From positions 1 through 17,267 of IMG/VR virus record IMGVR_UViG_2565956714_000008: a stretch of 17,267 nt of DNA. The stretch is one strand, 5' to 3'. The notes beneath the pieces were generated by a model. It saw nothing but the letters and a program-made list of their open reading frames with translations. It was not told the DNA's origin and searched no databases. Source of the stretch: a virus. Taxonomy: Duplodnaviria > Heunggongvirae > Uroviricota > Caudoviricetes. The translations under genes were made by a program, and so were the position numbers. This document shows, piece by piece, positions 3,357 to 15,505 of the stretch (position 1 is its first letter; every line of letters begins with the position of its first letter).

Positions 3357-3455
3357 ACAGACATTTGGCGGCGTTTCTAAAATAACACTACGCGTACTAC
3401 TTGGCTTAAGTAAACCAACATGAAAATCACTTTTTCTTATATTATCGAAAAGGTT

Positions 3456-4688: not shown

Positions 4689-4733
4689 TGGTGGCCCTTG
4701 CTGGACTTGAACCAGCGACCAAGCGATTATGAG
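4689..4733 (-). repeat. att core copy: 45-nt duplicate of the tRNA-Ile2 3' end (acceptor/T-arm to anticodon loop), marking the left boundary of the integrated element
   Basis: tggtggcccttgctggacttgaaccagcgaccaagcgattatgag matches 15430-15474 at 44 of 45 positions (single C/T difference); the sequence diverges immediately after, and the region upstream in tRNA orientation is not tRNA-like. Confidence 0.85.
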
Positions 4734-4842
4734 TTGGTTGATAACCCTTTACTTACAGATACTTAGCGATACTTTTCAATACCTTAGCATTTTTTAAAAC
4801 TACTGTATAAATACCTGTATATACCCCAAAATACTTCTTTAC

Positions 4843-4890: not shown

Positions 4891-4914
4891 CAGATCGCTT
4901 GGTGGGGTGTATGA

Positions 4915-6336
4915 GTGAAATTATTCAGATTCTCTAAAGTAAAAATTGCAGAACTGCCAACGCCGGAACATGGACAGGTCGAATATGGTGATACGGAGGT
5001 TAACGGGCTGCGTGTCCGTGTAGGTTCGTCTGGTGTGAAAAGTTTCTGCATTTCCCGTAAGCGTAACGGAAAATTTATTCGTGCAACGCTGGGGCGTTTT
5101 CCTGATCTGAGCGTGGATAATGCCAGGGCTAAAGCTATGGAACTCCTTGGCGAAGTCGCCACAACGGGGATAAATCCGAACATAGCAAAGCGCACTAACA
5201 ACAAGGCCATGATAACGCTGAGTGAGGCGATTGACGCCTACGTAAAAAATCGTGGCCACCGCCTGAAACCCTCCACAGAAAAACAGTACCGCAGCATATT
5301 ACAGAATTATTCCGGTGACTGGATGGCCCATACCCTCGCCAGTATTTCCCGCGAACGGGTGGAACAACGGCATAAGGCCATCACTGATGGGGCTGTATGG
5401 TTCGGTGCTGATAAAACCACGTTACGGGCTGGGGTTGGTACAGGAAGCAAGGCACAGGCCGATTTATGGGCGCGTGCGCTACGTGCTGTGTGTCGGTTTG
5501 CGCATGATCATTACCGTGATGATGCGGGTAATACTCTTTTACCGGATCCGCCGACTCTGGTACTGAGCACCAAGCGCCAGTGGCACGGAACGGTAAGAAA
5601 AACGGAACGTATCCGCCTGCATGATTTTCCCCGCTGGTTTGCTGCTGTAGCTGCTGTGCGCGACCAGGGCGAACAGGAAAGGGATGATATAGCTGTTACG
5701 GTATGTGATGCCGTGGAAATGGCACTGTTTACCGGACTGAGGAAATCAGAAGTTTTTGGCCTTACGTGGGATCGCGTGAATATGGGCGGTCGCTTTTTCT
5801 GGATAGACACCACGAAAAACGGGGATCCGCTTGAACTGCCGATCACTGATACGTTGCGGAAAATGTTTCTTCGCAGGCTAAAAAACAAAGCTGCTGATGA
5901 TGTGCTGGTGTTTCCTGGCGTGAAGGGAGTGATTCAGGAGACACGGCACATCATAGACCGGATAAGCGCGGCTACCATTCCTGAGGCGAACGATGAAATG
6001 CTCTTCCCTGTCCCGTTTAAGTGGCACGACGCACGCCGGACGTTCGGAACGGTTGCTGAGCTGGTGGGCGTGGGTAATTACATCCTCAAGCGCCTGATGA
6101 ATCACCGCACTATGCGAAGTGCCGACGTAACGCAGGGGTATTTACATTTCGGTGCTGATGAACTGCTGGAGCCAGCATCACGGATAGAACGGGCAATTCT
6201 GGAACATGCCGGGCTGGTGGAGAGTAAAAAATCTATCGATGCGCAATTACTTTCCGCACTGGAGGGCATGAGTGATGATGAAAAACGTCGTTTACTATTT
6301 GCTATAGTACAAGAAAAGAATGACATATATGGGTGA
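4915..6336 (+). CDS. int: Tyrosine recombinase / integrase, P4-like with N-terminal arm-binding domain
   Basis: 473-aa ORF starting GTG 4915. The N-terminus (LPTPEHGQVEYGDTEVNGLRVRVGSSGVKSFCISRKRNGKFIRATLGRFPDLSVDNARAKAMELLGEV) fits the arm-binding domain pattern of P4-family integrases; C-terminal region has catalytic-domain signatures (LFTGLRKSEV, HDARRTFGT, TQGYLHF). Lies 180 bp inside the att repeat. Confidence 0.9.
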   Translation: MKLFRFSKVKIAELPTPEHGQVEYGDTEVNGLRVRVGSSGVKSFCISRKRNGKFIRATLGRFPDLSVDNARAKAMELLGEVATTGINPNIAKRTNNKAMITLSEAIDAYVKNRGHRLKPSTEKQYRSILQNYSGDWMAHTLASISRERVEQRHKAITDGAVWFGADKTTLRAGVGTGSKAQADLWARALRAVCRFAHDHYRDDAGNTLLPDPPTLVLSTKRQWHGTVRKTERIRLHDFPRWFAAVAAVRDQGEQERDDIAVTVCDAVEMALFTGLRKSEVFGLTWDRVNMGGRFFWIDTTKNGDPLELPITDTLRKMFLRRLKNKAADDVLVFPGVKGVIQETRHIIDRISAATIPEANDEMLFPVPFKWHDARRTFGTVAELVGVGNYILKRLMNHRTMRSADVTQGYLHFGADELLEPASRIERAILEHAGLVESKKSIDAQLLSALEGMSDDEKRRLLFAIVQEKNDIYG

Positions 6337-7045
6337 TAACAATATATCGGTCAAACAATATATTATTTATTCGGTTATGAATGATTTAATTACTGGTGGG
6401 CGAGACTCTTCAGTTTTAAACGTTCCTGTATCTTTATCCCCGAAAAACTCCACCATAGAGGCTATAAAACGCTTGATTGATGATATAAGAGATTATTTTT
6501 ATAAATCAAAGTATCCAACAAGAGAATTTCTTTTGTGTTATGGTTTAGAATTAAGAGAAATCGAGCAATATCCTATTGAATTAGCTATAAGAATGGATTC
6601 ATGTGGTTTTTTAATATTTGATAGTAAACTATCTTGTCAGGTTGTCGATACTTTAAATTCAGCAGTTGCATTGTACCATGTCGGAATGCGTAATCACGCA
6701 GACAAACTTACTAGGGTTGGTGTTGAGTTATTGCTTAATGACTTTTTTGAAGAAATTATATCGAACCATGAAAAAGATAAAAAAATAAAAGATGCTTTAT
6801 CCTTATCACAGAAAGAAAAAGCGCGCAAACCAAGAAATCATTATTACAATGAAGTTATGCACGTAATTAAACTAACATGGGAAAAGTACCCTAAAGCCAG
6901 TAAAACAGGTTTATTGAACGAGCTTTCTGTTTACTATCATGGGAAAGTAAGTAAAAACACTCTGGATAAATGGATTAAAGAATCAGGAGCACAACCACCA
7001 AGACCTGATAAATATTCTTCGTTTGAACTTGTTCACCCCCAATAG
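6320..7045 (+). CDS. Hypothetical protein, 241 aa, markedly AT-rich cargo gene; possible HTH near C-terminus
   Basis: ORF overlaps the integrase stop by 17 nt (ATG 6320; alternative ATG 6329). Base composition is visibly more AT-rich than the flanking integrase and regulator genes. No recognisable catalytic motif; C-terminal KASKTGLLNELSVYYHGKVSKNTLDKWIKE looks HTH-like. Confidence 0.55.
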   Translation: MTYMGDNNISVKQYIIYSVMNDLITGGRDSSVLNVPVSLSPKNSTIEAIKRLIDDIRDYFYKSKYPTREFLLCYGLELREIEQYPIELAIRMDSCGFLIFDSKLSCQVVDTLNSAVALYHVGMRNHADKLTRVGVELLLNDFFEEIISNHEKDKKIKDALSLSQKEKARKPRNHYYNEVMHVIKLTWEKYPKASKTGLLNELSVYYHGKVSKNTLDKWIKESGAQPPRPDKYSSFELVHPQ

Positions 7046-7073
7046 CTGGCTAGTGTATCTTAATAGCTGGCTA
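7041..7073. repeat. Two direct repeats aatagctggcta spaced 21 bp, upstream of the Xis/AlpA-like gene
   Basis: aatagctggcta at 7041-7052 and 7062-7073; a partial third copy (ctggctatt) near 7110. Possible regulator binding sites. Confidence 0.3.
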
Positions 7074-7150
7074 TTAAGGCTAAATAACTGGTAACCTCCC
7101 CACAGCAACTGGCTATTGGGCTAAAAACAAAATACCCATTGATTGATATT

Positions 7151-7184
7151 TATCACCGTTGTTACTTAGAAGTACACGGTGATA
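7151..7184. promoter_or_regulatory. Inverted repeat TATCACCGT-N16-ACGGTGATA overlapping the ribosome-binding region of the downstream HTH gene; candidate operator
   Basis: Perfect 9-bp arms at 7151-7159 and 7176-7184. The half-site TATCACCG resembles lambda-type operator half-sites, although the spacing differs from lambda operators. Confidence 0.4.
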
Positions 7185-7187
7185 GAT

Positions 7188-7397
7188 ATGAATTTAAAGA
7201 AATCTGATTTATCAACTGACCGCCTTACACGTGCTGAAGCTGCTGCCTACCTTGGCGTTAACAATCAAACGCTGGCGAACTGGGCCTGTACTGGCAAGGT
7301 AAAAATCCCTTTCCATAAGCTGGGGCGCAAAGTGCTGTATATGCGCACTGATCTCGATGCTTATCTTGCATCCACTCGCAGAACGCAGACGGTGTAA
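7188..7397 (+). CDS. Xis/AlpA-superfamily helix-turn-helix DNA-binding protein (excisionase-like or induction regulator)
   Basis: 69 aa from ATG 7188 (track start GTG 7179). LTRAEAAAYLGVNNQTLANWACTGKVKIPFHKLGRKVLYMRTDLDAYL fits the excisionase-family HTH pattern (L..EAA.YLGVS..TL..W...G.IP..K.GR...Y...DLDAYL). Confidence 0.75.
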   Translation: MNLKKSDLSTDRLTRAEAAAYLGVNNQTLANWACTGKVKIPFHKLGRKVLYMRTDLDAYLASTRRTQTV

Positions 7398-7744
7398 GGG
7401 GGAGTGATGGCACATAAAACAAAGGCGACCGCAGAGGGCCGCCAGTGGCATAACACTAAACTTGAGCATATCCAGAATACCAGGTTGTTGGCTGGTGGGC
7501 AATGCTATCAGTCTGGCTCGATTCGCTGCCATGCCTGCAATGAGCGTATTTTCCTAGAATACTCTTTAAGGTACTTCTCAAGGATAAACGCACATGGTGC
7601 GAATCTCTCCGGTTCATGTTCGTTTACCGCATTTTTGCGTTGTTTTTTCTTGGATGAGGATAATTTCTTTAATGATTTGTCAGTCATCGTAGATACCTGT
7701 AACCCTGTGCGCCACAGTTCACCGCACCACGGCGCTGGTGATGG

Positions 7745-7870
7745 TTACTCCTGCTCTTTGGCCTTGCGCCGCTGGCGGCGTTTGATCTCATCAAGGATTT
7801 TTCTTGGTAAGAAGCCTGCTGGTTTATTCTCTGGTAGAGAAAGTTTGTTATCGGTCTGCTTTTCAGTCAT
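7745..7870 (-). CDS. Small basic protein, 41 aa, translationally coupled to the upstream RHH gene
   Basis: ATG at 7870 lies 3 nt after the RHH stop codon (ATGtaTGA arrangement); encodes MTEKQTDNKLSLPENKPAGFLPRKILDEIKRRQRRKAKEQE. Below the ORF-track length cut-off; a weak call. Confidence 0.25.
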   Translation of the reverse strand: MTEKQTDNKLSLPENKPAGFLPRKILDEIKRRQRRKAKEQE

Positions 7871-7873
7871 ACA

Positions 7874-8065
7874 TCAGCCTTTAGGTTCAATGCCGCGTCG
7901 CTTTAGTTCGGCACGAGCTAATTCTTTAAACCAATTGCCGAGGGTTAGGCCATCGGCGGTTGCTGCCTCGTTTACTTGCTGGCGTAGTTCTTTGCTAATT
8001 CGTATCTGGAATGTCGGCGACCATCCCTCGCCGCGTGGTGATTTATCCCGCTTTAATGTTGACAT
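7874..8065 (-). CDS. Ribbon-helix-helix (Arc/CopG-like) DNA-binding protein, candidate repressor
   Basis: 63 aa; ...FQIRISKELRQQVNEAATADGLTLGNWFKELARAEL has the beta-strand/helix/helix layout of RHH proteins. Its start codon is embedded in a perfect palindromic operator (8064-8109). Confidence 0.6.
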   Translation of the reverse strand: MSTLKRDKSPRGEGWSPTFQIRISKELRQQVNEAATADGLTLGNWFKELARAELKRRGIEPKG

Positions 8066-8109
8066 GTACGTACGTAACTCCTATTATCATCAATATTACG
8101 TACGTACAT
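8064..8109. promoter_or_regulatory. Palindromic operator: two copies of the self-complementary 10-mer TACGTACGTA within perfect 14-bp inverted arms, in the divergent promoter region
   Basis: atgtacgtacgtaa (8064-8077) and ttacgtacgtacat (8096-8109) are exact reverse complements, separated by 18 bp that include the RHH gene's AGGAG ribosome-binding site. Confidence 0.55.
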
Positions 8110-8133
8110 TAACAGTAAGTGCAACAAAAAACA

Positions 8134-8168
8134 AAGCCCCGCAAGTGTCGTTACCACTCGCAGGGCTT
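8134..8168 (-). terminator. Hairpin with 12 of 14 paired bases, followed by a U-run on the minus strand only
   Basis: aagccccgcaagtg / cactcgcagggctt with loop tcgttac; A-tract 8121-8133 gives UGUUUUUUGUU after the hairpin on the minus strand. On the plus strand it would sit in the 5' UTR of the replication operon. Function uncertain. Confidence 0.3.
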
Positions 8169-8204
8169 CTAACCACCAACGATAACGAGAGTATCGAGGT
8201 AGCT

Positions 8205-8408
8205 ATGAGAAATCATACCATACACCCGCAAGGGCGGGATTCGCACAACCTGAATAAATTCGCCTGGCGTTTTATCGCCCTGAGCGCCGCAAAACCGCGT
8301 GTGATTACCATCGTGGCCACCAGCGAACAGGAAGCACGCCAGCACTCCCCGGCTGGCTGCGTGATGGTATTCGCCGCCCGTATTCGTCAGGGGGTGTGCC
8401 ATGCCTGA
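8205..8408 (+). CDS. Hypothetical protein, 67 aa, first gene of the plus-strand operon leading to the replication gene
   Basis: ATG 8205 with GAGGT 5 nt upstream; codon usage on this strand is typical of E. coli coding DNA (ctg, gcc, acc, atc, cgt, ccg), unlike the overlapping antisense ORFs; stop overlaps the next start (8401). Confidence 0.45.
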   Translation: MRNHTIHPQGRDSHNLNKFAWRFIALSAAKPRVITIVATSEQEARQHSPAGCVMVFAARIRQGVCHA

Positions 8409-8721
8409 TATGTCAAATTACCAGTACCTGATTAATCCGCATTTTAACTGTGAGCATGATATTGCTAAAAAGGTTTATTCCGCTGCGGATGGGGCGACTG
8501 ACAATATATCAATGGCCGTTGCGTCAATTGGTAGCCTGATGTGGCATGCGTCAGAAAATGAGGACTATGACGAAAAGGCCATGCGCATTGATATGGGTAA
8601 TATCGGTTTGTTACTGGCAATGCTTGGACATTTTGATATTTCGTTACGGTGCACCATTGAAAATGCCACAGATGCATTAAATGCCATAAAGAAAGCGAAT
8701 ACTGATTCAAATCGGGGATAA
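8401..8721 (+). CDS. Hypothetical protein, 106 aa
   Basis: ATG 8401 with GGGGG 6 nt upstream; overlaps the preceding stop; no recognisable domain. Confidence 0.5.
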   Translation: MPDMSNYQYLINPHFNCEHDIAKKVYSAADGATDNISMAVASIGSLMWHASENEDYDEKAMRIDMGNIGLLLAMLGHFDISLRCTIENATDALNAIKKANTDSNRG

Positions 8722-8727
8722 ATAATC

Positions 8728-9027
8728 ATGAGAACGTATTTATCTGGCTTGACTGCCAGCGGTTATGCACATCCCAAAATTATCCCCGGCGCTATTTATC
8801 TGGATAAGAACGGTAACAGAGTAACGGTAAAAGAACTGATGTTTGACCGTGTGTATTTTATTCGTGATGGCTATTCATTTCATAGTTCGCTGAACGTGGA
8901 GATCTTTATTAGCAGATTCAGGCGGGAAATCCCGCTTTCCAGAAATAACCATGTGTCACGTGTGAATGTGGATAAAAAACTACAGGAACTGAAAAACATG
9001 ATTGCCGCGTGGAGAGAGCAGAAATGA
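8728..9027 (+). CDS. Hypothetical protein, 99 aa
   Basis: ATG 8728 (GGGGA 9 nt upstream); its stop overlaps the replication-gene start (ATGA at 9024-9027), indicating translational coupling. Confidence 0.5.
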   Translation: MRTYLSGLTASGYAHPKIIPGAIYLDKNGNRVTVKELMFDRVYFIRDGYSFHSSLNVEIFISRFRREIPLSRNNHVSRVNVDKKLQELKNMIAAWREQK

Positions 9028-10841
9028 AAAAAGCGCCAAATTTAAAACACCAGTCGCGTGACAAAATGACGGAAGTCATCATTTTTGCGGGTAGTGATGC
9101 GTGGGCACATGCGAAGCAGTGGCAGGAACAGGACGGGCGACTGGCTGGCGATAACGTGCCTCCTGTCTGGCTTGGAGAGCAACAACTTGCCGAACTGGAC
9201 AACCTGCAAATCGTACCGGACGGACGCTATCGCGTGCGTCTCTATCAGGCGGGGTTATTGCGTCCGGGGCTTGTTAATACCATCGGGCAGAAACTGGCAG
9301 CGGCAGGTGTCAGGGATGCTGATTATTATCCTGAAGGAATGCACAGCCAGAAACGGGAGAACTGGCGCGAATATCTGGAACGTGAACGGGCAGAGCAGGC
9401 GGAAAAGAAAAAGGTAGTTGAACTGCCTGTAAAGAAAAAAGAGCGGGTAAAAGACGATAACGCTTCATCACTGGCGCTTAACCAGATGGGAGCAAGTCAA
9501 CGCGGCGAAGTTCTCCTGGCACATTATGGCGGTGAATTGGCGATTCATGCTGACTCTGACACTGTTCACCATTACAACGGCGTTGTATGGGAGCCAGTAC
9601 AGGATAAAGAATTACAGCGAGCTATGGCACAGATTTTCATTGATGCGGAGATCAGCTATTCGCAGAACGCCATTAAATCGGCGGTCGATACCATGAAGTT
9701 AAGTTTGCCTGTAATGGGGAATACAGCCCGTAACCTGATTGGATTCAGTAACGGGGTATTTGATACCAGAACAGGTAATTTTCGGGGGCATAACAAAAAC
9801 GACTGGTTGTTAATTGCCAGTGAATTACCTTTCAGCCCACCAGCAGAGGGGGAAACACTGGCAACACATGCGCCGAATTTCTGGAAGTGGTTACGCCGTT
9901 CGGTGGCTGAGAATGACCGCAAGGCAGATCGCGTACTGGCGGCATTATTCATGGTGCTGGCGAACCGGTACGACTGGCAGTTATTCATTGAGGTAACAGG
10001 GCCGGGGGGAAGTGGTAAAAGCGTGATGGCGGAGATTTGCACCATGCTGGCGGGTAAGGCTAATACAGTATCAGCAAGCATGAAGGCGCTGGAAGATGCA
10101 AGGGAACGTGCGTTAGTGGTTGGCTTTTCGCTGATTATCATGCCGGATATGACCCGCTACGCTGGTGATGGGGCAGGGATTAAGGCCATTACAGGCGGTG
10201 ACAAGGTGGCAATTGACCCGAAACACAAAGCCCCCTACTCAACGCGTATTCCGGCAGTAGTGCTGGCGGTTAACAATAACGCCATGTCATTCAGTGACCG
10301 CAGCGGGGGGATCTCACGTCGTCGGGTGATATTCAATTTTTCGGAAGTTGTACCGGAGAACGAACGCGATCCGATGCTGGCGGAAAAAATAGAAGGTGAG
10401 CTGGCGGTAGTGATTCGCCATCTGCTTACACGGTTTGCTGACCAGGACGAAGCCAGACGCCTGTTATATGAGCAGCAGAAATCTGAAGAAGCACTGGCGA
10501 TAAAGCGAGAGGGGGATTCGCTGGTGGACTTCTGCGGCTATCTCATGGCGTCGGTAATGTGTGATGGCCTGTTAGTGGGTAATGCTGAAATTGTGCCATT
10601 CAGCCCGCGCAGGTATCTCTATCATGCCTATCTGGCTTATATGAGGGCTCATGGGTTTGGTAAACCTGTAACACTGACGCGCTTCGGTAAAGATATGCCT
10701 GGGGCAATGGCGGAATATGGCAGGGAGTATATAAAACGGAAAACGAAGCACGGTTTACGTTCAAACGTGACACTGACGGAGGAATCAGAAGACTGGATGC
10801 CATCATGTGTATCAGTCACTAATGACGATAGCAAAAATTAA
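9024..10841 (+). CDS. Replication initiator: primase/SF3-helicase-like P-loop NTPase (Pri-Rep type)
   Basis: 605 aa from ATG 9024 (GGAGAGAG 5 nt upstream; track start GTG 9009). Walker A VTGPGGSGKSVMAEIC and a downstream hydrophobic-acidic segment (LIIMPDM) as candidate Walker B, in the C-terminal half; immediately followed by an iteron cluster as in PICI/SaPI and P4-type replication modules. The N-terminal half has no motif I can assign. Confidence 0.8.
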   Translation: MKKAPNLKHQSRDKMTEVIIFAGSDAWAHAKQWQEQDGRLAGDNVPPVWLGEQQLAELDNLQIVPDGRYRVRLYQAGLLRPGLVNTIGQKLAAAGVRDADYYPEGMHSQKRENWREYLERERAEQAEKKKVVELPVKKKERVKDDNASSLALNQMGASQRGEVLLAHYGGELAIHADSDTVHHYNGVVWEPVQDKELQRAMAQIFIDAEISYSQNAIKSAVDTMKLSLPVMGNTARNLIGFSNGVFDTRTGNFRGHNKNDWLLIASELPFSPPAEGETLATHAPNFWKWLRRSVAENDRKADRVLAALFMVLANRYDWQLFIEVTGPGGSGKSVMAEICTMLAGKANTVSASMKALEDARERALVVGFSLIIMPDMTRYAGDGAGIKAITGGDKVAIDPKHKAPYSTRIPAVVLAVNNNAMSFSDRSGGISRRRVIFNFSEVVPENERDPMLAEKIEGELAVVIRHLLTRFADQDEARRLLYEQQKSEEALAIKREGDSLVDFCGYLMASVMCDGLLVGNAEIVPFSPRRYLYHAYLAYMRAHGFGKPVTLTRFGKDMPGAMAEYGREYIKRKTKHGLRSNVTLTEESEDWMPSCVSVTNDDSKN

Positions 10842-10853
10842 ACTTATGGAATA

Positions 10854-11085
10854 ACTGTTCACCACTGTTCACCCTGTCATAAATATCTTTTATATCAGTA
10901 TATTATAGGGTGAACAGTTATTTATGAACTATTCACCAAACTATTCACTGTTCACCTTTTTGGTTGTTTATTGAGCTTCAAGGGTGAACAGTGGTGAACA
11001 GTTGGTGAATAGTTTTTGTAAAACTGTTCACCCCTTAACAGTATGAATTTAAATGGAAAATATCAAAAGGTGAACAGGTGAAGGG
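10854..11085. repeat. Iteron-type replication origin: about 11 copies of ACTGTTCACC / GGTGAACAGT in both orientations within AT-rich spacers
   Basis: tgttcacc at 10856-10863, 10866-10873, 10949-10956, 11025-11032; variant tattcacc at 10930-10937; inverted ggtgaaca at 10909-10916, 10983-10990, 10993-11000, 11069-11076; variants ggtgaata at 11004-11011 and ggtgaagg at 11078-11085. Several copies are tandem with ~10-bp period. Confidence 0.7.
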
Positions 11086-11128
11086 TTAAAATACAAAAAT
11101 TTTAATTTATTGCTCTGAGATAAAGCCT

Positions 11129-11374
11129 ATGACAGCGAAGCGCACAAAAAAAACACAATCGCACGCCCTTGATTTGACGGAACACTGGTTAAGGGGGTCG
11201 ATAAAAATCATCGACCGCAACGCCGGGGAAGGATACGCGAAAGCACATCCCGAACTGATAAGCGCATTCATGACCACGGCGGCGGCAAATTTTGCCACGC
11301 TAACAGAGCGGGAGATTGCCGAAGCGGAACAGGTAACAACCATCAACGTTAAAACCGGAGAGCAGACAGCATGA
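11129..11374 (+). CDS. Hypothetical protein, 81 aa
   Basis: ATG 11129 with only a weak ribosome-binding site; stop overlaps the SSB start (ATGA at 11371-11374). No recognisable domain. Confidence 0.45.
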   Translation: MTAKRTKKTQSHALDLTEHWLRGSIKIIDRNAGEGYAKAHPELISAFMTTAAANFATLTEREIAEAEQVTTINVKTGEQTA

Positions 11375-11793
11375 CAGCACAGATAGCGGCTTACGGACGG
11401 CTGGTGGCTGACCCGCAGTTAAAGACCACTAGCAAGGGTACACAAATGACGATGGCTAGTATGGCGGTCCCCCTTCCGTGCAGCCAGGCAGATGACGGAA
11501 CGGCGACGATGTGGTTATCCGTCCTGGCGTTTGGCAGACAGGCCGACGCACTGGCAAAACACCACAAAGGCGAACTGGTGAGCGTGGCGGGTAACATGCA
11601 GGTAAGCCAGTGGACAGGCCAGAACGGCGAAACGCGGCAGGGCTGGCAGGTTATCGCAGACAGTGTAATCAGTGCCAGAACGGCGCGACCGGGCGGCAAA
11701 AAAGGTCAACAGGGCCAGGCTACTGACGCACTGAACAGGGCAAAACAACAGTCGGGGAATGATGATCCGTACGGCGATAATATACCGTTTTAA
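11371..11793 (+). CDS. ssb: Single-stranded DNA-binding protein (SSB) with acidic C-terminal tip
   Basis: 140 aa; OB-fold region WLSVLAFGRQADALAKHHKGELVSVAGNMQVSQWTGQNGETRQGWQVIAD parallels E. coli SSB ([51 protein letters not shown]); Gly/Gln-rich linker and C-terminal DDPYGDNIPF resembling the SSB tail DDDIPF. Confidence 0.8.
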   Translation: MTAQIAAYGRLVADPQLKTTSKGTQMTMASMAVPLPCSQADDGTATMWLSVLAFGRQADALAKHHKGELVSVAGNMQVSQWTGQNGETRQGWQVIADSVISARTARPGGKKGQQGQATDALNRAKQQSGNDDPYGDNIPF

Positions 11794-11803
11794 ATTCTGC
11801 AAA

Positions 11804-11839
11804 TAAAAAAATGCCGGAAGAAAATAGATTTTCCGGCAT
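11804..11839 (-). terminator. Stable hairpin (9-bp stem ATGCCGGAA/TTCCGGCAT) between ssb and the capsid gene, forming a canonical intrinsic terminator only in the minus orientation
   Basis: Stem 11811-11819 and 11831-11839, loop 11 nt; A-run 11804-11810 gives a U-run after the hairpin on the minus strand; no U-run follows it on the plus strand. Confidence 0.35.
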
Positions 11840-12010
11840 GCTACATAAATCCCGACCAAAGGAAGTAAATACATTAACACGAATTATCAGCACTGAAGTT
11901 GTCACGGCAGATTTTATACAACATTGCACTTGGTTGCATGTATTCGCATAGCAAATATCGGTGATAGCATATATCCACAATTATTTTTAATGAATGCAAA
12001 GAGGATGCGT

Positions 12011-13051
12011 ATGGTTGATTTATATTCGCCTGCCCAGCTTGTGCAGGTGGCTAATGCTGAAGATGTGCAAAAAAAATTAAATGTGTTGTTTACCAGTTTG
12101 TTTTTCACTCGCTCGGTAATGTTTGAATCGAGAGACATTATTCTTGATACGATCGACGATCCAAATATCCCGATCGCGGCGTTTTGCTCTCCTATGGTGG
12201 GCAGTAAAGTTTCACGAGATGAGGGATACGAATCAAAAACAATTCGCCCTGGCTATATGAAACCGAAAAGCAGCATTGATCCAAATAAGTTAGCTGTGCG
12301 CCCTGCTGGTGTGTCACCTGAGCAATACAATGCTTTTGGGGCGCGTAATATTAAAGTTAAACAGGCGATTGTAAATCAGGCTAAAGCTATTCGTACACGT
12401 ATTGAATGGCTTGCTGTTCAGGCAATCACAACGGGGAAAAATATCATTGAGGGCGATGGTATTGAACGTTATGAGCTGGACTGGAATATAAAACCACAAA
12501 ATATCATCACTCAGTCTGGCGGTACTGAGTGGTCAGGTAAGGATAAAGAAACTTTTGATCCAAATGATGATATTGAGAGCTACGCAGAATTTAGTGAGGG
12601 CGTCACTAATATCATCATTATGGGCGGTAATGTATGGAAGAAATACCGTTCATTCAGAGCGATAAAAGAGGCTCTGGATACCCGTCGTGGTTCTAATTCC
12701 GAACTGGAAACGGCCCTTAAAGACCTTGGTGATTCGGTGAGTTTTAAAGGGTATATGGGCGATGTTGCGATTGTTGTTTACAGCGGGCGTTATACCGACG
12801 AGGACGGAACTGAAAAATATTTCCTTGATCCTGATTTGATGGTGCTTGGCAATACGGCTCTCCAGGGGATTGTCGCTTATGGCGGTATTCAGGATCCGGA
12901 GCTAATCCGGATGGGGCTGACTAAAGCCGAACTTGCACCGAAAAACTATATTGTGCCTGGTGATCCGGCTATTGAATATGTGCAGACACATTCAGCACCA
13001 CAGCCAATACCGGCCCGTATCAATCGTTTTGTTACCGTTCGCATTGGCTAA
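12011..13051 (+). CDS. Major capsid protein, lambda gpE family
   Basis: 346 aa from ATG 12011 (AAAGAGGA, 5-nt spacer; track start 11924 is upstream in frame). Long colinear matches to lambda gpE as I recall it: ITQSGGTEWSGKDKETFDPNDDIESY vs ITQSGGTEWSKRDKSTYDPTDDIEAY; DTRRGSNSELETALKDLG vs DTRRGSNSELETAVKDLG; GDVAIVVYSGRY vs GDVAIVVYSGQY; MVLGNT in both. Confidence 0.9.
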   Translation: MVDLYSPAQLVQVANAEDVQKKLNVLFTSLFFTRSVMFESRDIILDTIDDPNIPIAAFCSPMVGSKVSRDEGYESKTIRPGYMKPKSSIDPNKLAVRPAGVSPEQYNAFGARNIKVKQAIVNQAKAIRTRIEWLAVQAITTGKNIIEGDGIERYELDWNIKPQNIITQSGGTEWSGKDKETFDPNDDIESYAEFSEGVTNIIIMGGNVWKKYRSFRAIKEALDTRRGSNSELETALKDLGDSVSFKGYMGDVAIVVYSGRYTDEDGTEKYFLDPDLMVLGNTALQGIVAYGGIQDPELIRMGLTKAELAPKNYIVPGDPAIEYVQTHSAPQPIPARINRFVTVRIG

Positions 13052-13061
13052 GGGGGGAGCA

Positions 13062-13403
13062 ATGGCTACTCATTACACTGAACTCATGGCTGGCACTGAA
13101 GCACTGGTTACTACGCTGGGGATATTTTCAGCTAATAAAGGGGTAATTCCTGCATTTACGCCACTGATGCAGGAAGATACAACAGGTGCACTGGTGGTAT
13201 GGGATGGTACGAGTGCAGGTAAAGCTGTTTATGTTTCCGCTGTACAACTCGATACAGCGAAAAAAACACAGGCTCAGGTCTATAAGACAGGTGTCTTAAA
13301 TGTTGATGCTCTTAACTGGCCTGAGTCAGTAAAAGAACTGTCAGTAAAGGTTGCAGCGTTTGTTGGCTCAGGTATTTCTGTTCAGCCGCTGGCTCGTGTG
13401 TAA
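13062..13403 (+). CDS. Head decoration protein, lambda gpD family
   Basis: 113 aa from ATG 13062 (GGGGGGAG upstream). IPAFTPLMQEDTTGALVVWDGTSAGKAV...KTGVLNVDALNWPE...AAFVGSGISV parallels lambda gpD [28 protein letters not shown]...KSGTFRYEDVLWPE...TAFAGTAISIV. Confidence 0.85.
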   Translation: MATHYTELMAGTEALVTTLGIFSANKGVIPAFTPLMQEDTTGALVVWDGTSAGKAVYVSAVQLDTAKKTQAQVYKTGVLNVDALNWPESVKELSVKVAAFVGSGISVQPLARV

Positions 13404-13414
13404 AGGGGGATACA

Positions 13415-13798
13415 ATGCAGAATCATTACAATGACCTTAAGCCAATTGCCGAAATGATGTATCCGGATCCAGCAGTAGAGGAATTAAAGGCTATTGCTGA
13501 CAAAATGCGTTTAAGCGAGCGTCTTGTTGATATGAATCAGGTGATGGAACTTACAACCCTGAGTCGTCGTACACTGCTAAACCTTGAAGCACGTGGAGAG
13601 TTCCCCGAACGCGTGCAGGTTACGGAAGGGCGTAAGGCCTGGTATTTAAGCGAAGTGATCGACTGGATAAACAATATTCCGCGCGCTTCTGAATATTGCC
13701 GCGTACCTGTCCCAAAAAAGCCAGATGCGGCGCTATGCCTCAAGATTGATCGTGTACGCCGCAATGCACGGGATGGTCGCTATAAGCTGATTGGTTGA
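13415..13798 (+). CDS. AlpA-family HTH protein with ~40-aa N-terminal extension, immediately upstream of cos
   Basis: 127 aa, ATG 13415 with GGGGGA 5 nt upstream. MELTTLSRRTLLNLEARGEFPERVQVTEGRKAWYLSEVIDWINN fits the AlpA pattern (T.LSR.T...L...G.FP.PV.LG.R...W...EV..WI). Confidence 0.7.
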   Translation: MQNHYNDLKPIAEMMYPDPAVEELKAIADKMRLSERLVDMNQVMELTTLSRRTLLNLEARGEFPERVQVTEGRKAWYLSEVIDWINNIPRASEYCRVPVPKKPDAALCLKIDRVRRNARDGRYKLIG

Positions 13799-13822
13799 TG
13801 AAATTAGGGCCCGTTCTGGCTG

Positions 13823-14020
13823 GCGGGTCCTTTCCGGCGATCCGGTAGGCTACGGGGCGTCAGGCGCGCGGGTTTTCGCTTTTTATGAAAATTTTCCGGT
13901 TTAAGGCGTTTCCGTTCTTCTTCGCCGTAACTTTATGTTTTTATTTGAAACACCCCCTGAAAAGAAAGGAAACGACAGGTGCTGAAAACGGGCTTTTTGG
14001 CCTCTGTCGTTTCCTTTCTC
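13823..14020 (+). other. Lambda-type cos site: cosQ-like segment, cosN-equivalent 12-mer (13855-13866, divergent) and cosB with R3, I1, R2 and R1 elements
   Basis: From 13867 onward the sequence (cgcgggttttcgctttttatgaaaattttccggtttaaggcgtttccgttcttcttcg ... ctgaaaagaaaggaaacgacaggtgctgaaaacgggctttttggcctctgtcgtttcctttctc) is nearly identical to my recollection of lambda left-end bases 13-170, including R3 cgtttccgttct (13907-13918), R2 agaaaggaaacg (13963-13974) and R1 cgtttcctttct (14008-14019). Upstream gcgggtcctttccggcgatccggtaggctacg parallels the lambda right end ACGGGTCCTTTCCGGTGATCCGACAGGTTACG. The 12-mer is GGGCGTCAGGCG here versus GGGCGGCGACCT in lambda. Confidence 0.8.
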
Positions 14021-14339
14021 GTTTTTGAGCAAAACTGGCTCTATACATGCTTAGAAATGCTAGGGTTTTTGCGTAATACAGGTAGTGCAGGAGATTCACC
14101 AGGGGATTATTCATATATGCTGGTAGGCGCTATGTGTTAGTGGTGAGCGAAAAACAATCAAAACCGACACCGTAAAAATAAAAATCACAAATTATCAATT
14201 AGTTGTGCCAGTGGTGATGGCGAATGAAATTTCAAAAACTAGCCTTTTTCCGCGATGCTTTCGCCCCGTGGCAGGCCACCCCACCAGGAGGACCCGCTAC
14301 AATTACGGTATCAACCTCATCACTATGGAGGCCATGACC

Positions 14340-14624
14340 ATGACCGAGACCGAAGCGCTCGAAATAATCCGCAGTATTACCGGAATCAGCCAGGCAACAG
14401 GCAAACAGGAGGCCACGCAGCCGGACAGCGTCACCGCTGAAAATTACGCGCGTGTGGTGGCTGAGGTGATGCGCCGTGACGGTATTGAGCTTAACGGCGT
14501 GGATATGCGCAACATACGAACCAGAGTCCTTGAGTTGCTGGCATACCGTCGCCGTTCTCAACAACGGAGGGAGAGCGCGAAAAATACTTACCAGTGGAAG
14601 AAGCCGGAACGACTGCGGTGGTAA
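14340..14624 (+). CDS. Hypothetical protein, 95 aa, in the position lambda Nu1 occupies relative to cosB but unrelated to Nu1
   Basis: Best-supported start ATG 14340 (GGAGG with 8-nt spacer); in-frame alternatives at 14205 (GTG), 14217, 14325 and 14334. Arg-rich C-terminus; no recognisable domain. Confidence 0.45.
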   Translation: MTETEALEIIRSITGISQATGKQEATQPDSVTAENYARVVAEVMRRDGIELNGVDMRNIRTRVLELLAYRRRSQQRRESAKNTYQWKKPERLRW

Positions 14625-14642
14625 CTTGCTGATATTCCCGAT

Positions 14643-14890
14643 AACGCAAAATTGCGTTGGCTGGTGGGTGAGTTGCAGATCTGCAACTCGACCATGAAAC
14701 TACGGAAACTACCCGTAGTTTGGGTAGTAAGAGTAACACCCAGATTTTGGGGCTTACTCGCGATACCCAAATAAAGGGTATCGGTGGAAGAAATATCGTT
14801 TCTCATATGTGAGTACCGAGGGCGGAATTCCGCCTTCGGTTACTTATTGTGCTCATGCACAGGGAGAGGCGGGTACAAATCTCTGTACCC
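14643..14890. repeat. Cluster of six inverted repeats/palindromes in a ~250-bp non-coding stretch
   Basis: AACGCAA-aa-TTGCGTT (14643-14658); perfect 20-bp palindrome GAGTTGCAGATCTGCAACTC (14670-14689); AAACTACGG/CCGTAGTTT (14697-14721) overlapping ACTACCC/GGGTAGT (14708-14728); GATACCC/GGGTATC (14762-14782); GGCGGAATTCCGCC (14821-14834); GGGTACA/TGTACCC (14871-14890). Confidence 0.45.
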
Positions 14891-15033
14891 TGACGTCTTC
14901 CGGACTGCCAGCCCCATCGTTTTTTTACGCCCGCGAAAAATAAAAATTGTTTGTATGTGAGTATTGTAGCCAGCAAAAGCTCTTTCTTTAGTGGCTTATT
15001 GTTTCTAATAGATTTTGGGAGGTAGAAATGGGA

Positions 15034-15053
15034 GGCCCAGCGAAAGCTGGGCC
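15034..15053 (-). terminator. GC hairpin with GAAA tetraloop (GGCCCAGC-gaaa-GCTGGGCC) just downstream of the small minus-strand ORF
   Basis: 8-bp perfect stem; on the minus strand it follows the stop at 15072 and is followed by a C/U-rich tract (UCCCAUUUCU), so not a textbook U-run. Confidence 0.3.
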
Positions 15054-15071
15054 GAGCTTGTTACGCTGTCA

Positions 15072-15215
15072 TTACTTCAGCATGATAACTAAAGCTATAC
15101 ATACTAGCACTACGGCTATTGGGCATAGACCTAAATTGCCAAGTGCTGCGATTAAACCTGTAACGGCAATCACACGTGCAGACAGCAGGTCTGAGCCCTT
15201 TCTTAAAGTATCCAT
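15072..15215 (-). CDS. Small hydrophobic protein, 47 aa, with a predicted C-terminal transmembrane helix
   Basis: ATG at 15215 preceded by GGAGG with 5-nt spacer; encodes MDTLRKGSDLLSARVIAVTGLIAALGNLGLCPIAVVLVCIALVIMLK. Below the ORF-track length cut-off. It is antisense to the 100-aa plus-strand ORF 15028-15330, which also has a strong ribosome-binding site, so the call is uncertain. Confidence 0.35.
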   Translation of the reverse strand: MDTLRKGSDLLSARVIAVTGLIAALGNLGLCPIAVVLVCIALVIMLK

Positions 15216-15366
15216 TGATACCTCCGTCAGGGTTTTTGCCGGTCTCTTGGAGAGTTGGGGGCAAAAGTTCAGACCCGTAGCACTTTCTTGTTCGCAGGTG
15301 AACGGCTGCTACGACCCAACTGTTCTGTAGGCATGAGCCAATTCTTACTTGTTAATACTTCTCAGA

Positions 15367-15387
15367 GGTATCCTATAAGTATCCTGG
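15367..15387. promoter_or_regulatory. Putative integrase arm-type sites (second copy of the GGTATCCT repeat block)
   Basis: ggtatcctataagtatcctgg, 43 bp from the tRNA/att core; near-identical to 4843-4863 at the other end of the element. Confidence 0.4.
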
Positions 15388-15429
15388 TAAAGCAAGATAG
15401 TTTGGATACATCTGTAATTCATTGAAATC

Positions 15430-15505
15430 TGGTGGCCCCTGCTGGACTTGAACCAGCGACCAAGCGATTATGAGTCGCCTGCTCTAACCACTGAGCTAAA
15501 GGGCC
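15430..15505 (-). tRNA. ileY: tRNA-Ile2 (anticodon CAU, lysidine-type; anticodon-only tools would call tRNA-Met)
   Basis: Reverse complement of 15430-15505 is a 76-nt tRNA: GGCCCTTTAGCTCAGTGGTTAGAGCAGGCGACTCATAATCGCTTGGTCGCTGGTTCAAGTCCAGCAGGGGCCACCA, with 7-bp acceptor stem (one G-U pair), anticodon loop CUCAUAA and encoded CCA. It matches my memory of E. coli ileX/ileY and differs from elongator and initiator tRNA-Met. ileY chosen from the flanking gene order. Confidence 0.9.

What the first reader, a model, noticed from the sequence alone, without database searches (positions are those of the whole stretch)
11371..11793. Satellite-encoded SSB with a canonical acidic tail
The island carries its own SSB homologue with OB-fold and a C-terminal ...DDPYGDNIPF tip, the part of SSB that recruits host replication and repair proteins. 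Within a compact satellite it could support island replication or compete with helper or host SSB-interacting proteins.
Basis: partly seen in the sequence, partly recalled or inferred. Interest (0 to 1): 0.45.

Follow-up and report, generated by a model that had tools for sequence, protein, structure and literature searches.

The report
Phage satellite's own SSB gene
The gene is a real, intact single-stranded-DNA-binding protein sitting just after the replication origin of a 10.7-kb phage-satellite island of the well-studied EcCICFT073 type; databases already annotate it this way in about a third of E. coli genomes, so it is ordinary, although nobody seems to have tested what it does.

Summary
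ORF 11371-11793 (+) encodes 140 aa ending DDPYGDNIPF. It passes the curated cut-offs of Pfam SSB and TIGR00621. With a 62-sequence alignment it models as an OB domain (residues 1-100, pLDDT 93-97) followed by a low-confidence tail, and every top PDB fold match is a bacterial SSB. Three of the four EcSSB DNA-stacking aromatics are kept.

The tip is near-canonical rather than canonical. IPF, Asp at -5 and an aromatic at -7 are kept, but it has only 3 acidic residues. 111 of 120 close homologue clusters end in [ILVM]PF. dN/dS is 0.05-0.27.

The surrounding island lies between 46-nt att repeats at 4689-4734 and 15430-15475, at a tRNA with anticodon CAT. It is syntenic with the experimentally validated satellite EcCICFT073, which carries a 71%-identical SSB at the same place: primase, iteron origin, small ORF, SSB.

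RefSeq already names an identical protein "single-stranded DNA-binding protein". Homologous DNA is in 1821 of 5426 complete E. coli genomes. Mageeney et al. 2023 list SSB as a PICI replication gene.

The most likely role is an auxiliary SSB for island replication, with the IPF tip contacting host replisome proteins. This is inferred, not shown. I found no functional test in the papers searched. Low novelty.

The parts
11371..11793 (+). ssb coding sequence (140 aa plus stop)
   Evidence: ORF list and sequence. Pfam SSB 59.3 bits and TIGR00621 61.2 bits, both above their cut-offs. 100% identical at protein level to the RefSeq-annotated SSB WP_000126656.1 in E. coli KC-Dl-1.
11371..11670 (+). OB-fold DNA-binding domain (residues 1-100)
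   Evidence: AlphaFold2 with a 62-sequence alignment gives pLDDT 93-97 and the order beta1-beta3, helix 55-62, beta4-beta5. The 50 Foldseek PDB matches listed (all prob 1.00) are bacterial SSBs, best 5xgt/5yyu with TM 0.80-0.83 normalised to the target. W48, F54 and W81 align with EcSSB W54, F60 and W88; EcSSB W40 aligns with Q39.
11671..11760 (+). short basic linker (residues 101-130), beginning with the family-conserved motif SARTxRP (101-107)
   Evidence: Block mean pLDDT is 57-66. The linker has 6 K/R and 1 D/E, pI 11.7, against the 56-aa nearly uncharged linker of EcSSB. The motif is 68% identical among 34-60% identity relatives, where the OB average is 42% and the rest of the linker 12%.
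11761..11790 (+). C-terminal tip DDPYGDNIPF (residues 131-140)
   Evidence: Read directly from the sequence. 111 of 120 close homologue clusters end in [ILVM]PF. Asp136 and Phe140 are each kept in about 90% of the 62 aligned distant relatives, but that set was pre-selected on its C-terminal residues.
11357..11362 (+). Shine-Dalgarno GGAGAG, 8 nt upstream of the ssb ATG
   Evidence: Read directly from the sequence.
11129..11374 (+). 81-aa ORF of unknown function, translationally coupled to ssb through an ATGA overlap
   Evidence: PHROG 1231, E 1.8e-47, unknown function. No Pfam, NCBIfam, PADLOC or PDB match. An 86%-identical ORF with the same 4-nt overlap precedes the ssb of EcCICFT073.
10842..11128 (.). 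probable replication origin: AT-rich spacer (32% GC) with 11 copies of the iteron GGTGAACAGT, 6 in one orientation and 5 in the other
   Evidence: Repeats and GC content. The position directly 3' of pri matches the mapped and tested origin of EcCICFT073 (PMC6092414).
9009..10841 (+). primase-helicase (Pri/Rep) with D5_N, DUF5906 and Pox_D5 domains
   Evidence: Pfam, PHROG 864 'DNA primase' E 5.6e-191, and 49% identity to the EcCICFT073 primase.
11811..11839 (.). hairpin 18 nt after the ssb stop (11-bp stem, 7-nt loop), marking the boundary between the replication and capsid modules
   Evidence: -15.7 kcal/mol, z -3.8 on the + strand. There is an A-run before it and no U-run after it on +; on the - strand it is followed by U7AU3. 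Related islands have classical + strand terminators at the same place.
4689..4734 (.). attL: partial copy of the tRNA 3' half
   Evidence: 46-nt direct repeat with 15430-15475, one mismatch, 36 nt exact.
15430..15505 (-). tRNA with anticodon CAT (called Met by ARAGORN; PGAP annotates the tRNA at this position in related genomes as tRNA-Ile). Its 3' half, 15430-15475, is attR.
   Evidence: ARAGORN and Rfam; annotation in related genomes; repeat.

Best explanation
The gene encodes a genuine bacterial-type SSB: an OB-fold DNA-binding domain, a short low-confidence (presumably disordered) linker, and a C-terminal IPF tip. It is the last gene of the replication module of an EcCICFT073-type phage-inducible chromosomal island (PICI).

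Proposed mechanism:
- When a helper phage induces the island, transcription of the unidirectional alpA operon yields the D5-type primase-helicase, the 81-aa protein and, by translational coupling, the SSB.
- The primase-helicase opens the iteron origin that lies immediately upstream of the gene pair.
- The island's SSB coats the unwound strands.
- Through its terminal Ile-Pro-Phe, the SSB contacts the host proteins that normally dock on the host SSB tail. These include the chi subunit of the Pol III clamp loader and PriA.
- The runaway-replicating island therefore does not depend on the limited host SSB pool, which the helper phage is also drawing on.

Shown here: family membership, fold, conservation of the tip, purifying selection, position next to the origin, and co-inheritance with primase-helicases.

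Inferred: ssDNA binding, oligomeric state, partner binding, and the auxiliary (non-essential) contribution to island replication.
For: Identity:
- Pfam and NCBIfam scores are above the curated cut-offs.
- The model is confident for the OB domain and the 50 listed fold matches are bacterial SSBs.
- W48, F54 and W81 match EcSSB W54, F60 and W88.
- F54 and G74 are invariant, and W48 is kept in at least 90% of 62 relatives of 33-95% identity.

Functional constraint:
- dN/dS is 0.05-0.27.
- 111 of 120 close homologue clusters end in [ILVM]PF, while the linker varies in length and sequence.
- More distant relatives mostly end in the fully canonical PFDD[DE]IPF.

Replication context:
- The gene lies 243 nt downstream of an AT-rich, 11-iteron origin that follows the primase-helicase.
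- The same order (primase, origin gap, small ORF, SSB) is found in EcCICFT073.
- It is also found in an ileY-site island whose capsid module is of a different type, a ClpP-protease/capsid fusion.
- In Shigella, Edwardsiella, Scandinavium, Citrobacter and Klebsiella, a homologue of this primase lies just upstream of the ssb homologue.
- In Leclercia the SSB follows a different primase-helicase (Zn-ribbon, Toprim, DUF927).
- The SSB therefore travels with the replication module, not with the capsid module.

Literature:
- PMC10111431 places SSB with Primase and DUF5906 in the PICI replication category, co-localised with mapped origins.
- AlpA over-expression causes uncontrolled EcCICFT073 replication, which gives a plausible demand for extra SSB (PMC6092414).

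Established knowledge (not tested here): the last residues of EcSSB, above all Pro176 and Phe177, dock into chi, PriA, RecQ, ExoI and others. Satellite P4's alpha protein replicates DNA in vitro with only SSB, Pol III holoenzyme and gyrase. F-type plasmid SSBs complement E. coli ssb mutants.
Against: - No experiment on this protein or its EcCICFT073 orthologue was found in the papers searched.
- As described in PMC6092414, a construct with only pri/rep and ori supported plasmid maintenance in DH5alpha. Only int, alpA and pri are listed as essential for transfer. The island SSB is therefore at most auxiliary.
- The tip is less acidic than the host's (3 Asp against 4, with Asn at -4), which could weaken or alter partner binding.
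- EcSSB W40 has no aromatic counterpart.
- The linker is short and basic, unlike the host's, so behaviour on DNA may differ.
Confidence: 0.6

Rival explanations
1. Interference or decoy role. The island SSB, with a host-like IPF tip on a divergent body, competes with host SSB on helper-phage or host DNA, or soaks up SSB-tail-binding proteins. This would bias replication and repair resources toward the island and against the helper.
For: The IPF tip is conserved. The linker is divergent, short and basic, and there is a lineage-specific SARTxRP motif. PICIs are known to interfere with their helpers (PMC6092414, PMC6739421). The published pBAD interference screen of EcCICFT073 genes started at c1499, the capsid gene. 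The plasmid and primer tables hold no c1495-c1498 or ssb constructs, so the ssb appears never to have been tested.
Against: RppA alone accounts for the lambda/phi80 interference of EcCICFT073: deleting it restored plaque titres nearly to island-free levels. RppA expression did not affect phage replication. The gene sits in the replication module, not in the interference or accessory region. No sequence feature points specifically to inhibition.
Confidence: 0.12
2. Protection or counter-defence role. The SSB shields island ssDNA intermediates from host nucleases, or masks or mimics the SSB signals that some anti-phage systems monitor. This would help the island and its helper establish themselves in new hosts.
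For: About a third of E. coli genomes carry a homologue, with up to 6 copies per genome, so the gene is maintained across many lineages. Background knowledge, not tested here: plasmid leading-region SSBs act early after entry, and certain defence systems respond to phage SSBs.
Against: There is no match to any PADLOC defence model for the SSB or its partner ORF. The gene is not in the variable accessory zones. PICI DNA enters as double-stranded cos-packaged DNA, not as a single strand. Nothing in the data links it to a defence system.
Confidence: 0.08
3. Evolutionary passenger. The SSB was inherited with a primase-ori cassette from an ancestral phage or plasmid replicon, is functionally redundant with host SSB, and contributes nothing measurable.
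For: pri-ori alone replicates in a host with only chromosomal SSB, and only int, alpA and pri are reported essential. Some genome copies are truncated: 78% or lower coverage in many O157 and O55 genomes, and there are partial protein clusters.
Against: Purifying selection is strong (dN/dS 0.05-0.27). The extreme C-terminal tip is conserved across 34-98% identity relatives. The gene is retained while neighbouring modules are swapped. A neutral passenger in a 10.7-kb element should decay.
Confidence: 0.15

Closest known systems
SSB of EcCICFT073 (WP_000126698.1, E. coli CFT073), the prototype Gram-negative PICI
   Same: 71% identical over the full length and ends DDPYGDDIPF. It holds the same position: after the primase and origin gap, preceded by an 86%-identical small ORF with the same ATGA overlap, and upstream of lambda-E-like capsid and D-like decoration genes.
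   Different: The CFT073 linker is 4 aa shorter. In CFT073 a PerC-family gene and a small ORF lie between ssb and the capsid gene, and RppA is present. The window's island has neither PerC nor an Rpp homologue. The integration site also differs (between roxA and phoQ, against a tRNA with anticodon CAT).
E. coli chromosomal SSB (P0AGE0; PDB 1eqq, 1eyg)
   Same: Same family and OB fold. W54, F60 and W88 equivalents are present. The architecture is OB, then a flexible linker, then a tip ending IPF with an aromatic at -7 and Asp at -5.
   Different: Only 25% identity. The window protein is 140 aa against 178 aa. The L23 loop is shorter and has no W40 equivalent, and His55 is Leu. The linker is 30 aa and basic, against 56 aa that are Gly/Gln/Pro-rich and uncharged. 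The tip has 3 acidic residues, not 4.
Short bacterial SSBs with solved structures (Thermotoga maritima 1z9f; S. aureus SsbA/SsbB 5xgt/5yyu; B. subtilis SsbA/SsbB 6bhw/3vdy)
   Same: These are the best sequence and fold matches in the PDB: phmmer E 3.4e-10 to 1e-5, Foldseek TM about 0.8, 25-28% identity, with a compact OB domain.
   Different: They are chromosomal or competence proteins of distant phyla. None is from a satellite. SsbB-type proteins lack the IPF tip (background knowledge).
Plasmid-borne SSBs of conjugative plasmids (F Ssb/Ssf type)
   Same: A mobile element supplies an extra SSB with a host-compatible tail. The F type is known to complement E. coli ssb mutants (background knowledge).
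   Different: Not detectably close. tblastn of the window protein against 72,556 plasmids found only 52 records. The close ones are small non-conjugative replicons with primase and integrase that look like excised satellites. There are no conjugation genes in the island.
Satellite phage P4
   Same: An integrative satellite with a tRNA-targeting integrase and a D5/P4-alpha-family primase-helicase that acts on an iteron origin. Replication needs SSB and host Pol III (background knowledge; PMC6092414 discussion).
   Different: P4 encodes no SSB of its own and relies on the host's. This PICI family carries one.

Membership tests
Bacterial SSB family (Pfam PF00436 / NCBIfam TIGR00621) | Profile-HMM score above the curated family threshold | tested here: met
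   PF00436 scores 59.3 bits against a cut-off of 26. TIGR00621 scores 61.2 bits against 53.95.
Bacterial SSB family (Pfam PF00436 / NCBIfam TIGR00621) | N-terminal OB fold (five-stranded barrel with a helix between beta3 and beta4) | tested here: met
   The AF2 model has pLDDT 93-97 for residues 1-100, with strands E3-11, E16-19, E25-36 and E44-54, helix H55-62, and strands E69-82 and E88-100. The 50 listed Foldseek PDB matches are bacterial SSBs, all with probability 1.00. This is a prediction, not a solved structure.
Bacterial SSB family (Pfam PF00436 / NCBIfam TIGR00621) | Aromatic residues that stack on ssDNA (EcSSB W40, W54, F60, W88) | tested here: met
   Three of four are present: W48, F54 and W81. 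F54 is invariant and W48 is kept in at least 90% of relatives. The W40 position aligns with Q39, in a shortened loop where the alignment is uncertain.
Bacterial SSB family (Pfam PF00436 / NCBIfam TIGR00621) | Flexible linker followed by an acidic/hydrophobic C-terminal tip ending in (I/L)PF | tested here: met
   Residues 101-140 have block mean pLDDT 57-66. The tip is DDPYGDNIPF. 111 of 120 close homologue clusters end in [ILVM]PF. The tip is less acidic than the EcSSB tip.
Bacterial SSB family (Pfam PF00436 / NCBIfam TIGR00621) | Binds ssDNA as a homotetramer (or dimer of two-OB chains) | not testable with these tools
   Needs EMSA or fluorescence titration and SEC-MALS or native MS.
Bacterial SSB family (Pfam PF00436 / NCBIfam TIGR00621) | The tip binds host genome-maintenance proteins (chi, PriA, RecQ, ExoI and others) | not testable with these tools
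   Inferred only from the conserved IPF. Needs peptide-binding assays.
EcCICFT073-type Gram-negative PICI (phage satellite) | Small (10-20 kb) integrated element with its own integrase and flanking att repeats | tested here: met
   The element is 10.74 kb. A 46-nt repeat lies at 4689-4734 and 15430-15475, at the tRNA 3' end. The integrase has Arm-DNA-bind_3 and Phage_integrase domains. The island boundaries coincide with the ends of the megablast matches in other strains.
EcCICFT073-type Gram-negative PICI (phage satellite) | Unidirectional int - alpA - pri(rep) - ori organisation, with iterons flanking an AT-rich stretch directly 3' of pri | tested here: met
   Gene order is shown. There are 11 GGTGAACAGT iterons in both orientations at 10842-11128, at 32% GC. 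The definition comes from PMC6092414. Synteny with EcCICFT073 is shown.
EcCICFT073-type Gram-negative PICI (phage satellite) | Packaging hijack function (Rpp protein or terS, plus a cos/pac site) | tested here: not met
   There is no homologue of RppA in the window. The CFT073 RppA was verified against PDB 6hlk RppC. No terS was seen among the ORFs scanned. A cos site was not searched for. A 127-aa AlpA-family protein occupies the post-decoration position. This lowers the certainty that the island uses the Rpp mechanism, not that it is a PICI-type element.
EcCICFT073-type Gram-negative PICI (phage satellite) | Helper-phage-dependent induction, replication and high-frequency transfer | not testable with these tools
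   This is experimental. It has been shown for EcCICFT073 (PMC6092414) but not for this island.
Conjugative-plasmid leading-region SSB | Located on a conjugative element next to transfer or leading-region genes (psiB, ardA and the like) | tested here: not met
   The island holds no conjugation genes. Of the 52 plasmid hits, 44 are non-mobilizable and the close ones are satellite-like.
Coliphage-encoded SSB | A close homologue in sequenced phages of Enterobacteria | tested here: not met
   tblastn against 50,697 phage records found 121 hits, all below 60% identity. The listed ones are 26-30% identical and are mostly Staphylococcus or Streptococcus phages. Escherichia does not appear among the ten organism names listed for the 121 hits.

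The most novel reading that the evidence does not exclude
The island SSB is not merely a spare copy but a specialised adaptor. Its lineage-specific features would couple it to the island's own primase-helicase. These features are the short basic linker, the conserved SARTxRP motif at the OB/linker junction, and translational coupling to an unknown 81-aa partner. Its host-like IPF tip would meanwhile capture host Pol III or restart proteins. The result would be to channel the host replisome preferentially to the satellite origin, and away from the helper, during co-replication.
Probability: 0.1. Interest if true: 0.5.

Novelty: already known. Interest (0 to 1): 0.2.

Why it matters
As it stands this is a correct but routine annotation. 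An identical protein is already named SSB in RefSeq. The orthologue sits in the model satellite EcCICFT073. SSB has already been listed as a PICI replication-module family.

One small gap is worth noting. No experiment on a PICI-encoded SSB turned up in the papers I searched, and the published EcCICFT073 interference screen seems to have started downstream of it. About a third of complete E. coli genomes carry such a gene, some in several copies. A simple deletion or tail-truncation test in EcCICFT073 would show whether satellites need their own SSB to out-replicate their helpers, and whether a second IPF-tailed SSB perturbs host replication and repair.

Tried and rejected
- **Single-sequence structure prediction.** It gave an unusable model (pLDDT 44.9). 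It was replaced by a run on a 62-sequence alignment.
- **Alignment A1 for structure prediction.** I rebuilt it as A2.
- **The search for related loci with the alignment.** It failed because no stretch was conserved enough. The single-protein scan returned only 9 loci, so the cross-species context rests on few genomes.
- **Is the 81-aa upstream ORF Rpp?** I considered this and rejected it. The ORF has no PDB hit. RppA is the 144-aa protein further downstream in CFT073 and has no homologue in this window.
- **Did the 2019 pBAD screen already exonerate the SSB from interference?** I first thought so and then rejected it. The plasmid and primer tables begin at c1499 and contain no c1495-c1498.
- **Defence-system membership.** There are no PADLOC hits for the SSB or its neighbour.
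- **Rfam scan.** Only the tRNA was found; no C4/isrK-type immunity RNA reached the gathering score.
- **Promoter scan of 10700-12200.** No sigma-70-like site was found. The scanner missed the post-ssb hairpin, which I folded separately.
- **Minus-strand gene next to the hairpin.** The small minus-strand gene annotated downstream of ssb in strain 98219 has no counterpart in the window.
Full report
**1. The observation**

ATG is at 11371 and the TAA stop at 11791-11793, giving 140 aa that end ...QQSGNDDPYGDNIPF. A GGAGAG Shine-Dalgarno sequence lies 8 nt upstream. The ATG overlaps the TGA of an upstream 81-aa ORF as ATGA.

It is not a chance ORF:
- Pfam SSB (PF00436) scores 59.3 bits against a gathering score of 26 (E 4.3e-16, residues 5-99).
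- NCBIfam TIGR00621 'ssb' scores 61.2 bits against 53.95.
- PHROG 44 'single strand DNA binding protein' gives E 1.4e-39.

**2. The protein**

phmmer against the PDB finds only SSBs at significant E-values. The best is Thermotoga maritima 1z9f (3.4e-10), and E. coli SSB 1eqq scores 1e-4.

A single-sequence AlphaFold run was useless (pLDDT 44.9). With a 62-sequence alignment of relatives (A2, 33-95% identity) the model reaches mean pLDDT 86. Residues 1-100 score 93-97 and show the SSB topology: beta1-beta3, helix 55-62, beta4-beta5. Residues 101-140 score 57-66, as expected for a flexible tail. Foldseek against the PDB returns bacterial SSBs in all 50 listed rows. The best are S. aureus SsbA/SsbB and B. 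subtilis SsbA, with TM about 0.8 normalised to the target.

I checked my typed E. coli SSB sequence and it is identical to PDB 1eqq chain A. Against it the protein is 25% identical:
- W48, F54 and W81 align with the DNA-stacking residues W54, F60 and W88.
- W40 aligns with Q39 in a shortened loop.
- His55 is Leu.

In the family alignment F54 and G74 are invariant, and W48 is kept in at least 90% of sequences.

**3. The tail**

EcSSB ends MDFDDDIPF; this protein ends DDPYGDNIPF. The terminal Ile-Pro-Phe, Asp at -5 and an aromatic at -7 are shared. Asp at -4 is Asn and Asp at -6 is Gly, so the tip carries 3 acidic residues rather than 4.

- Among the 120 closest homologue clusters (74-98% identity), 111 end in [ILVM]PF. 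The commonest tips are DDPYGDNIPF (49), DDPYGDGIPF (18), and DDPYEDEIPF and DDPYGDDIPF (8 each).
- Among 50%-identity cluster representatives of at least 120 aa, 67 of 113 have an acidic-plus-aromatic or hydrophobic end. Many carry the fully canonical PFDD[DE]IPF. Many of the rest look like fragments or frameshifted calls.
- In distant relatives the last five residues are 63% identical to the query, against 12% for the linker and 42% for the OB domain. That subset was pre-selected on its C-terminal residues, so the unbiased counts above are the better evidence.

The linker is unlike the host's. It has 30 residues, 6 of them Lys or Arg, with pI 11.7. The EcSSB linker has 56 nearly uncharged residues. 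The linker begins with a motif, S-A-R-T-x-R-P, that is better conserved across the lineage than the OB domain itself.

Nei-Gojobori dN/dS over codons 1-107, computed against eight homologues from E. coli, Klebsiella, Leclercia, Citrobacter, Edwardsiella and Scandinavium, is 0.05-0.27 for the seven pairs where dS could be estimated. The gene is under purifying selection.

**4. The surroundings**

The window covers the ypjA-ileY-ygaQ region of an E. coli chromosome. A tRNA with anticodon CAT lies at 15430-15505 on the minus strand. PGAP calls the tRNA at this position in related genomes tRNA-Ile. Its 3' 46 nt (15430-15475) are repeated at 4689-4734 with one mismatch. The repeats delimit a 10.74-kb island whose ends coincide with the ends of the megablast matches in other strains.

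All island genes of interest run rightward:
- integrase (Arm-DNA-bind_3 plus Phage_integrase)
- a 241-aa ORF
- AlpA-type HTH
- an Icd-like ORF
- a 106-aa ORF
- DUF4222
- a 610-aa primase-helicase (D5_N, DUF5906, Pox_D5; PHROG 864 'DNA primase' E 5.6e-191)
- a 287-nt spacer
- the 81-aa ORF
- the SSB
- a lambda-gpE-like major capsid protein
- a lambda-gpD-like decoration protein
- a second AlpA-family protein
- a conserved 94-aa ORF

These assignments rest.

The spacer at 10842-11128 is 32% GC and holds 11 copies of GGTGAACAGT, six in one orientation and five in the other. This is the architecture described and functionally tested for the origin of EcCICFT073, which lies directly 3' of pri (PMC6092414).

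**5. Identity of the island**

Fetching the EcCICFT073 region of CFT073 shows the same order: integrase, HTH, YlcI, Icd-like, small ORFs, DUF4222, primase, a 288-nt gap, an 85-aa ORF, 'single-stranded DNA-binding protein' WP_000126698.1, PerC, a small ORF, major capsid, head decoration, a hypothetical protein, RppA.

- The CFT073 SSB is 71% identical and ends DDPYGDDIPF.
- Its upstream ORF is 86% identical and overlaps ssb by the same ATGA.

EcCICFT073 is the experimentally established Gram-negative PICI, induced and transferred by lambda and phi80 (PMC6092414, PMC6739421). The window's island is therefore a member of that satellite family by synteny and homology. Its own mobilisation is untested.

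**6. Which module the SSB belongs to**

- At the same ileY site, strain 98219 carries an island with a 96%-identical SSB and a 99%-identical primase. Its late module is quite different: a ClpP-protease/capsid fusion plus DUF1441.
- In Shigella, Edwardsiella, Scandinavium, Citrobacter and a circular 22.9-kb Klebsiella 'plasmid', a homologue of this primase lies just upstream of the ssb homologue.
- In Leclercia the SSB follows a different primase-helicase (Zn-ribbon, Toprim, DUF927), in an element with AntA, Ash and a tape-measure gene.

The SSB thus co-travels with primase-helicases, not with capsid genes.

Related islands have textbook intrinsic terminators immediately after ssb (L005, L011, L009). 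The window has an 11-bp hairpin at 11811-11839 (-15.7 kcal/mol, z -3.8). It lacks a downstream U-run on the plus strand, while on the minus strand it is followed by U7AU3. Either way, ssb closes the replication block.

**7. Distribution and prior knowledge**

- blastn finds ssb homologues in 1821 of 5426 complete E. coli genomes, at 2372 places and up to 6 per genome. All but one of the 30 listed hits are annotated 'single-stranded DNA-binding protein'; the exception is a 13%-coverage fragment with no annotation.
- The window's primase allele is found in 1172 genomes.
- The protein of strain KC-Dl-1 (WP_000126656.1) is 100% identical to the window's.
- The protein database holds 756 clusters at E<=1e-5, named SSB by NCBI and UniRef in Escherichia, Shigella, Salmonella and Citrobacter.
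- No sequenced coliphage carries a close relative. The listed phage hits are 26-30% identical and are mostly Staphylococcus or Streptococcus phages.
- F-type plasmid SSBs are not detected; only 52 plasmid records hit.
- Mageeney et al. 2023 explicitly place 'Primase, SSB and DUF5906' in the replication category of Gram-negative PICIs, co-localised with mapped origins (PMC10111431; preprint).

I found no paper that tests a PICI SSB.

The 2019 interference screen says it cloned the genes after the ori. Its plasmid and primer tables start at c1499 (capsid) and contain no c1495-c1498 or 'ssb'. The SSB was apparently not tested for interference. I correct my own first reading on this point.

**8. 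Mechanism**

The best-supported reading (confidence about 0.6) is an auxiliary replication SSB. On induction, the AlpA-driven operon makes the primase-helicase, the 81-aa protein and, by translational coupling, the SSB. The helicase opens the adjacent iteron origin. The SSB coats the displaced strands, and its IPF tip docks host SSB-partner proteins so that host Pol III completes synthesis.

What supports this:
- The steps 'is an SSB', 'sits in the replication module' and 'tip and body are under selection' are shown here.
- The steps 'binds ssDNA', 'forms tetramers', 'binds chi, PriA and others' and 'raises island replication' are inferred. The inference draws on established knowledge of EcSSB tail interactions, of P4 alpha-dependent replication (which needs only SSB, Pol III and gyrase), and of F-plasmid SSBs that complement ssb mutants.

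It is probably not essential. As described, pri plus ori alone maintained a plasmid in DH5alpha, and only int, alpA and pri are listed as essential for transfer.

Rivals:
- Tail-decoy or interference role (0.12). It remains open because it was never tested. It is disfavoured because RppA accounts for the interference and does not affect phage replication.
- Protection or counter-defence role (0.08). There is no PADLOC signal.
- Redundant passenger (0.15). It is disfavoured by dN/dS, by tip conservation, and by retention through module swaps.

**9. Verdict**

The feature is already annotated and already noted in the satellite literature. Novelty is 'already known' and interest is low (0.2). The residual value is that a very common, apparently untested gene of a model satellite could be characterised with simple genetics.

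Noticed in passing
window 13415-13798 (+), and absence elsewhere in 4689-15429: The island has no homologue of RppA/RppC, the protein that redirects helper TerS to the PICI cos site in EcCICFT073. A 127-aa second AlpA-family HTH protein (PDB 8c3t, E 1.6e-10; PHROG 2790) sits directly after the decoration gene. How this island is packaged is therefore unclear.
   Followed up: partly
window 11811-11839: A strong hairpin (11 bp, -15.7 kcal/mol, z -3.8) lies 18 nt after ssb. It is oriented like a terminator for the minus strand: an A-run comes before it on the plus strand, and U7AU3 follows it on the minus strand. Yet no convincing minus-strand gene lies to its right. Sister islands have ordinary plus-strand terminators at this spot.
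   Followed up: partly
window 11671-11691 (residues 101-107, SARTARP): The motif S-A-R-T-x-R-P at the OB/linker junction is more conserved across 34-60% identity relatives (68%) than the OB domain itself (42%). R106 and P107 are kept in roughly 90%. The motif is absent from E. coli SSB, and its function is unknown.
   Followed up: partly
window 11129-11374; loci L003, L004, L009, L012, L013: The ssb start (ATGACA) overlaps the stop of an upstream ORF as ATGA in many elements. The upstream ORFs fall into unrelated families: 81-85 aa PHROG 1231 in E. coli, and other sequences of 71-132 aa elsewhere. Translational coupling seems conserved while the partner is not.
   Followed up: partly
L004 (K. 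pneumoniae CP033626.1, 22.9 kb) and Enterobacter 10.6-16.8 kb 'plasmids' (H84-H89): The Klebsiella circular record, deposited as a non-mobilizable plasmid, carries the same SSB together with a primase-helicase, Icd-like, DUF4222, PerC and an integrase. It looks like an excised or episomal satellite rather than a true plasmid. Small Enterobacter plasmid records also carry a truncated match to this SSB, but I did not inspect their gene content.
   Followed up: no
L005 (E. coli 98219) against window 11794-13403: At the same ileY site, and with near-identical int, primase and ssb, another strain has a ClpP-protease/major-capsid fusion and DUF1441 in place of the lambda E/D-like capsid and decoration genes. 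This is a clean example of late-module swapping between PICIs.
   Followed up: partly
window 1-4600: Left of the island lie an IS1-type transposase fragment (1-378), the 3' part of the ypjA/ehaD autotransporter gene (313-1782, minus strand) and two AT-rich minus-strand ORFs (2565-3356, 3456-3938). In a related strain the matching region is annotated as a DUF5507 pseudogene. The window's ORFs were not examined further.
   Followed up: no
PMC6739421 supplementary plasmid and primer tables: The text says all genes after the EcCICFT073 ori were screened for lambda interference. The constructs listed begin at c1499, so the small ORF, ssb, PerC and c1498 appear to have been left out.
   Followed up: yes
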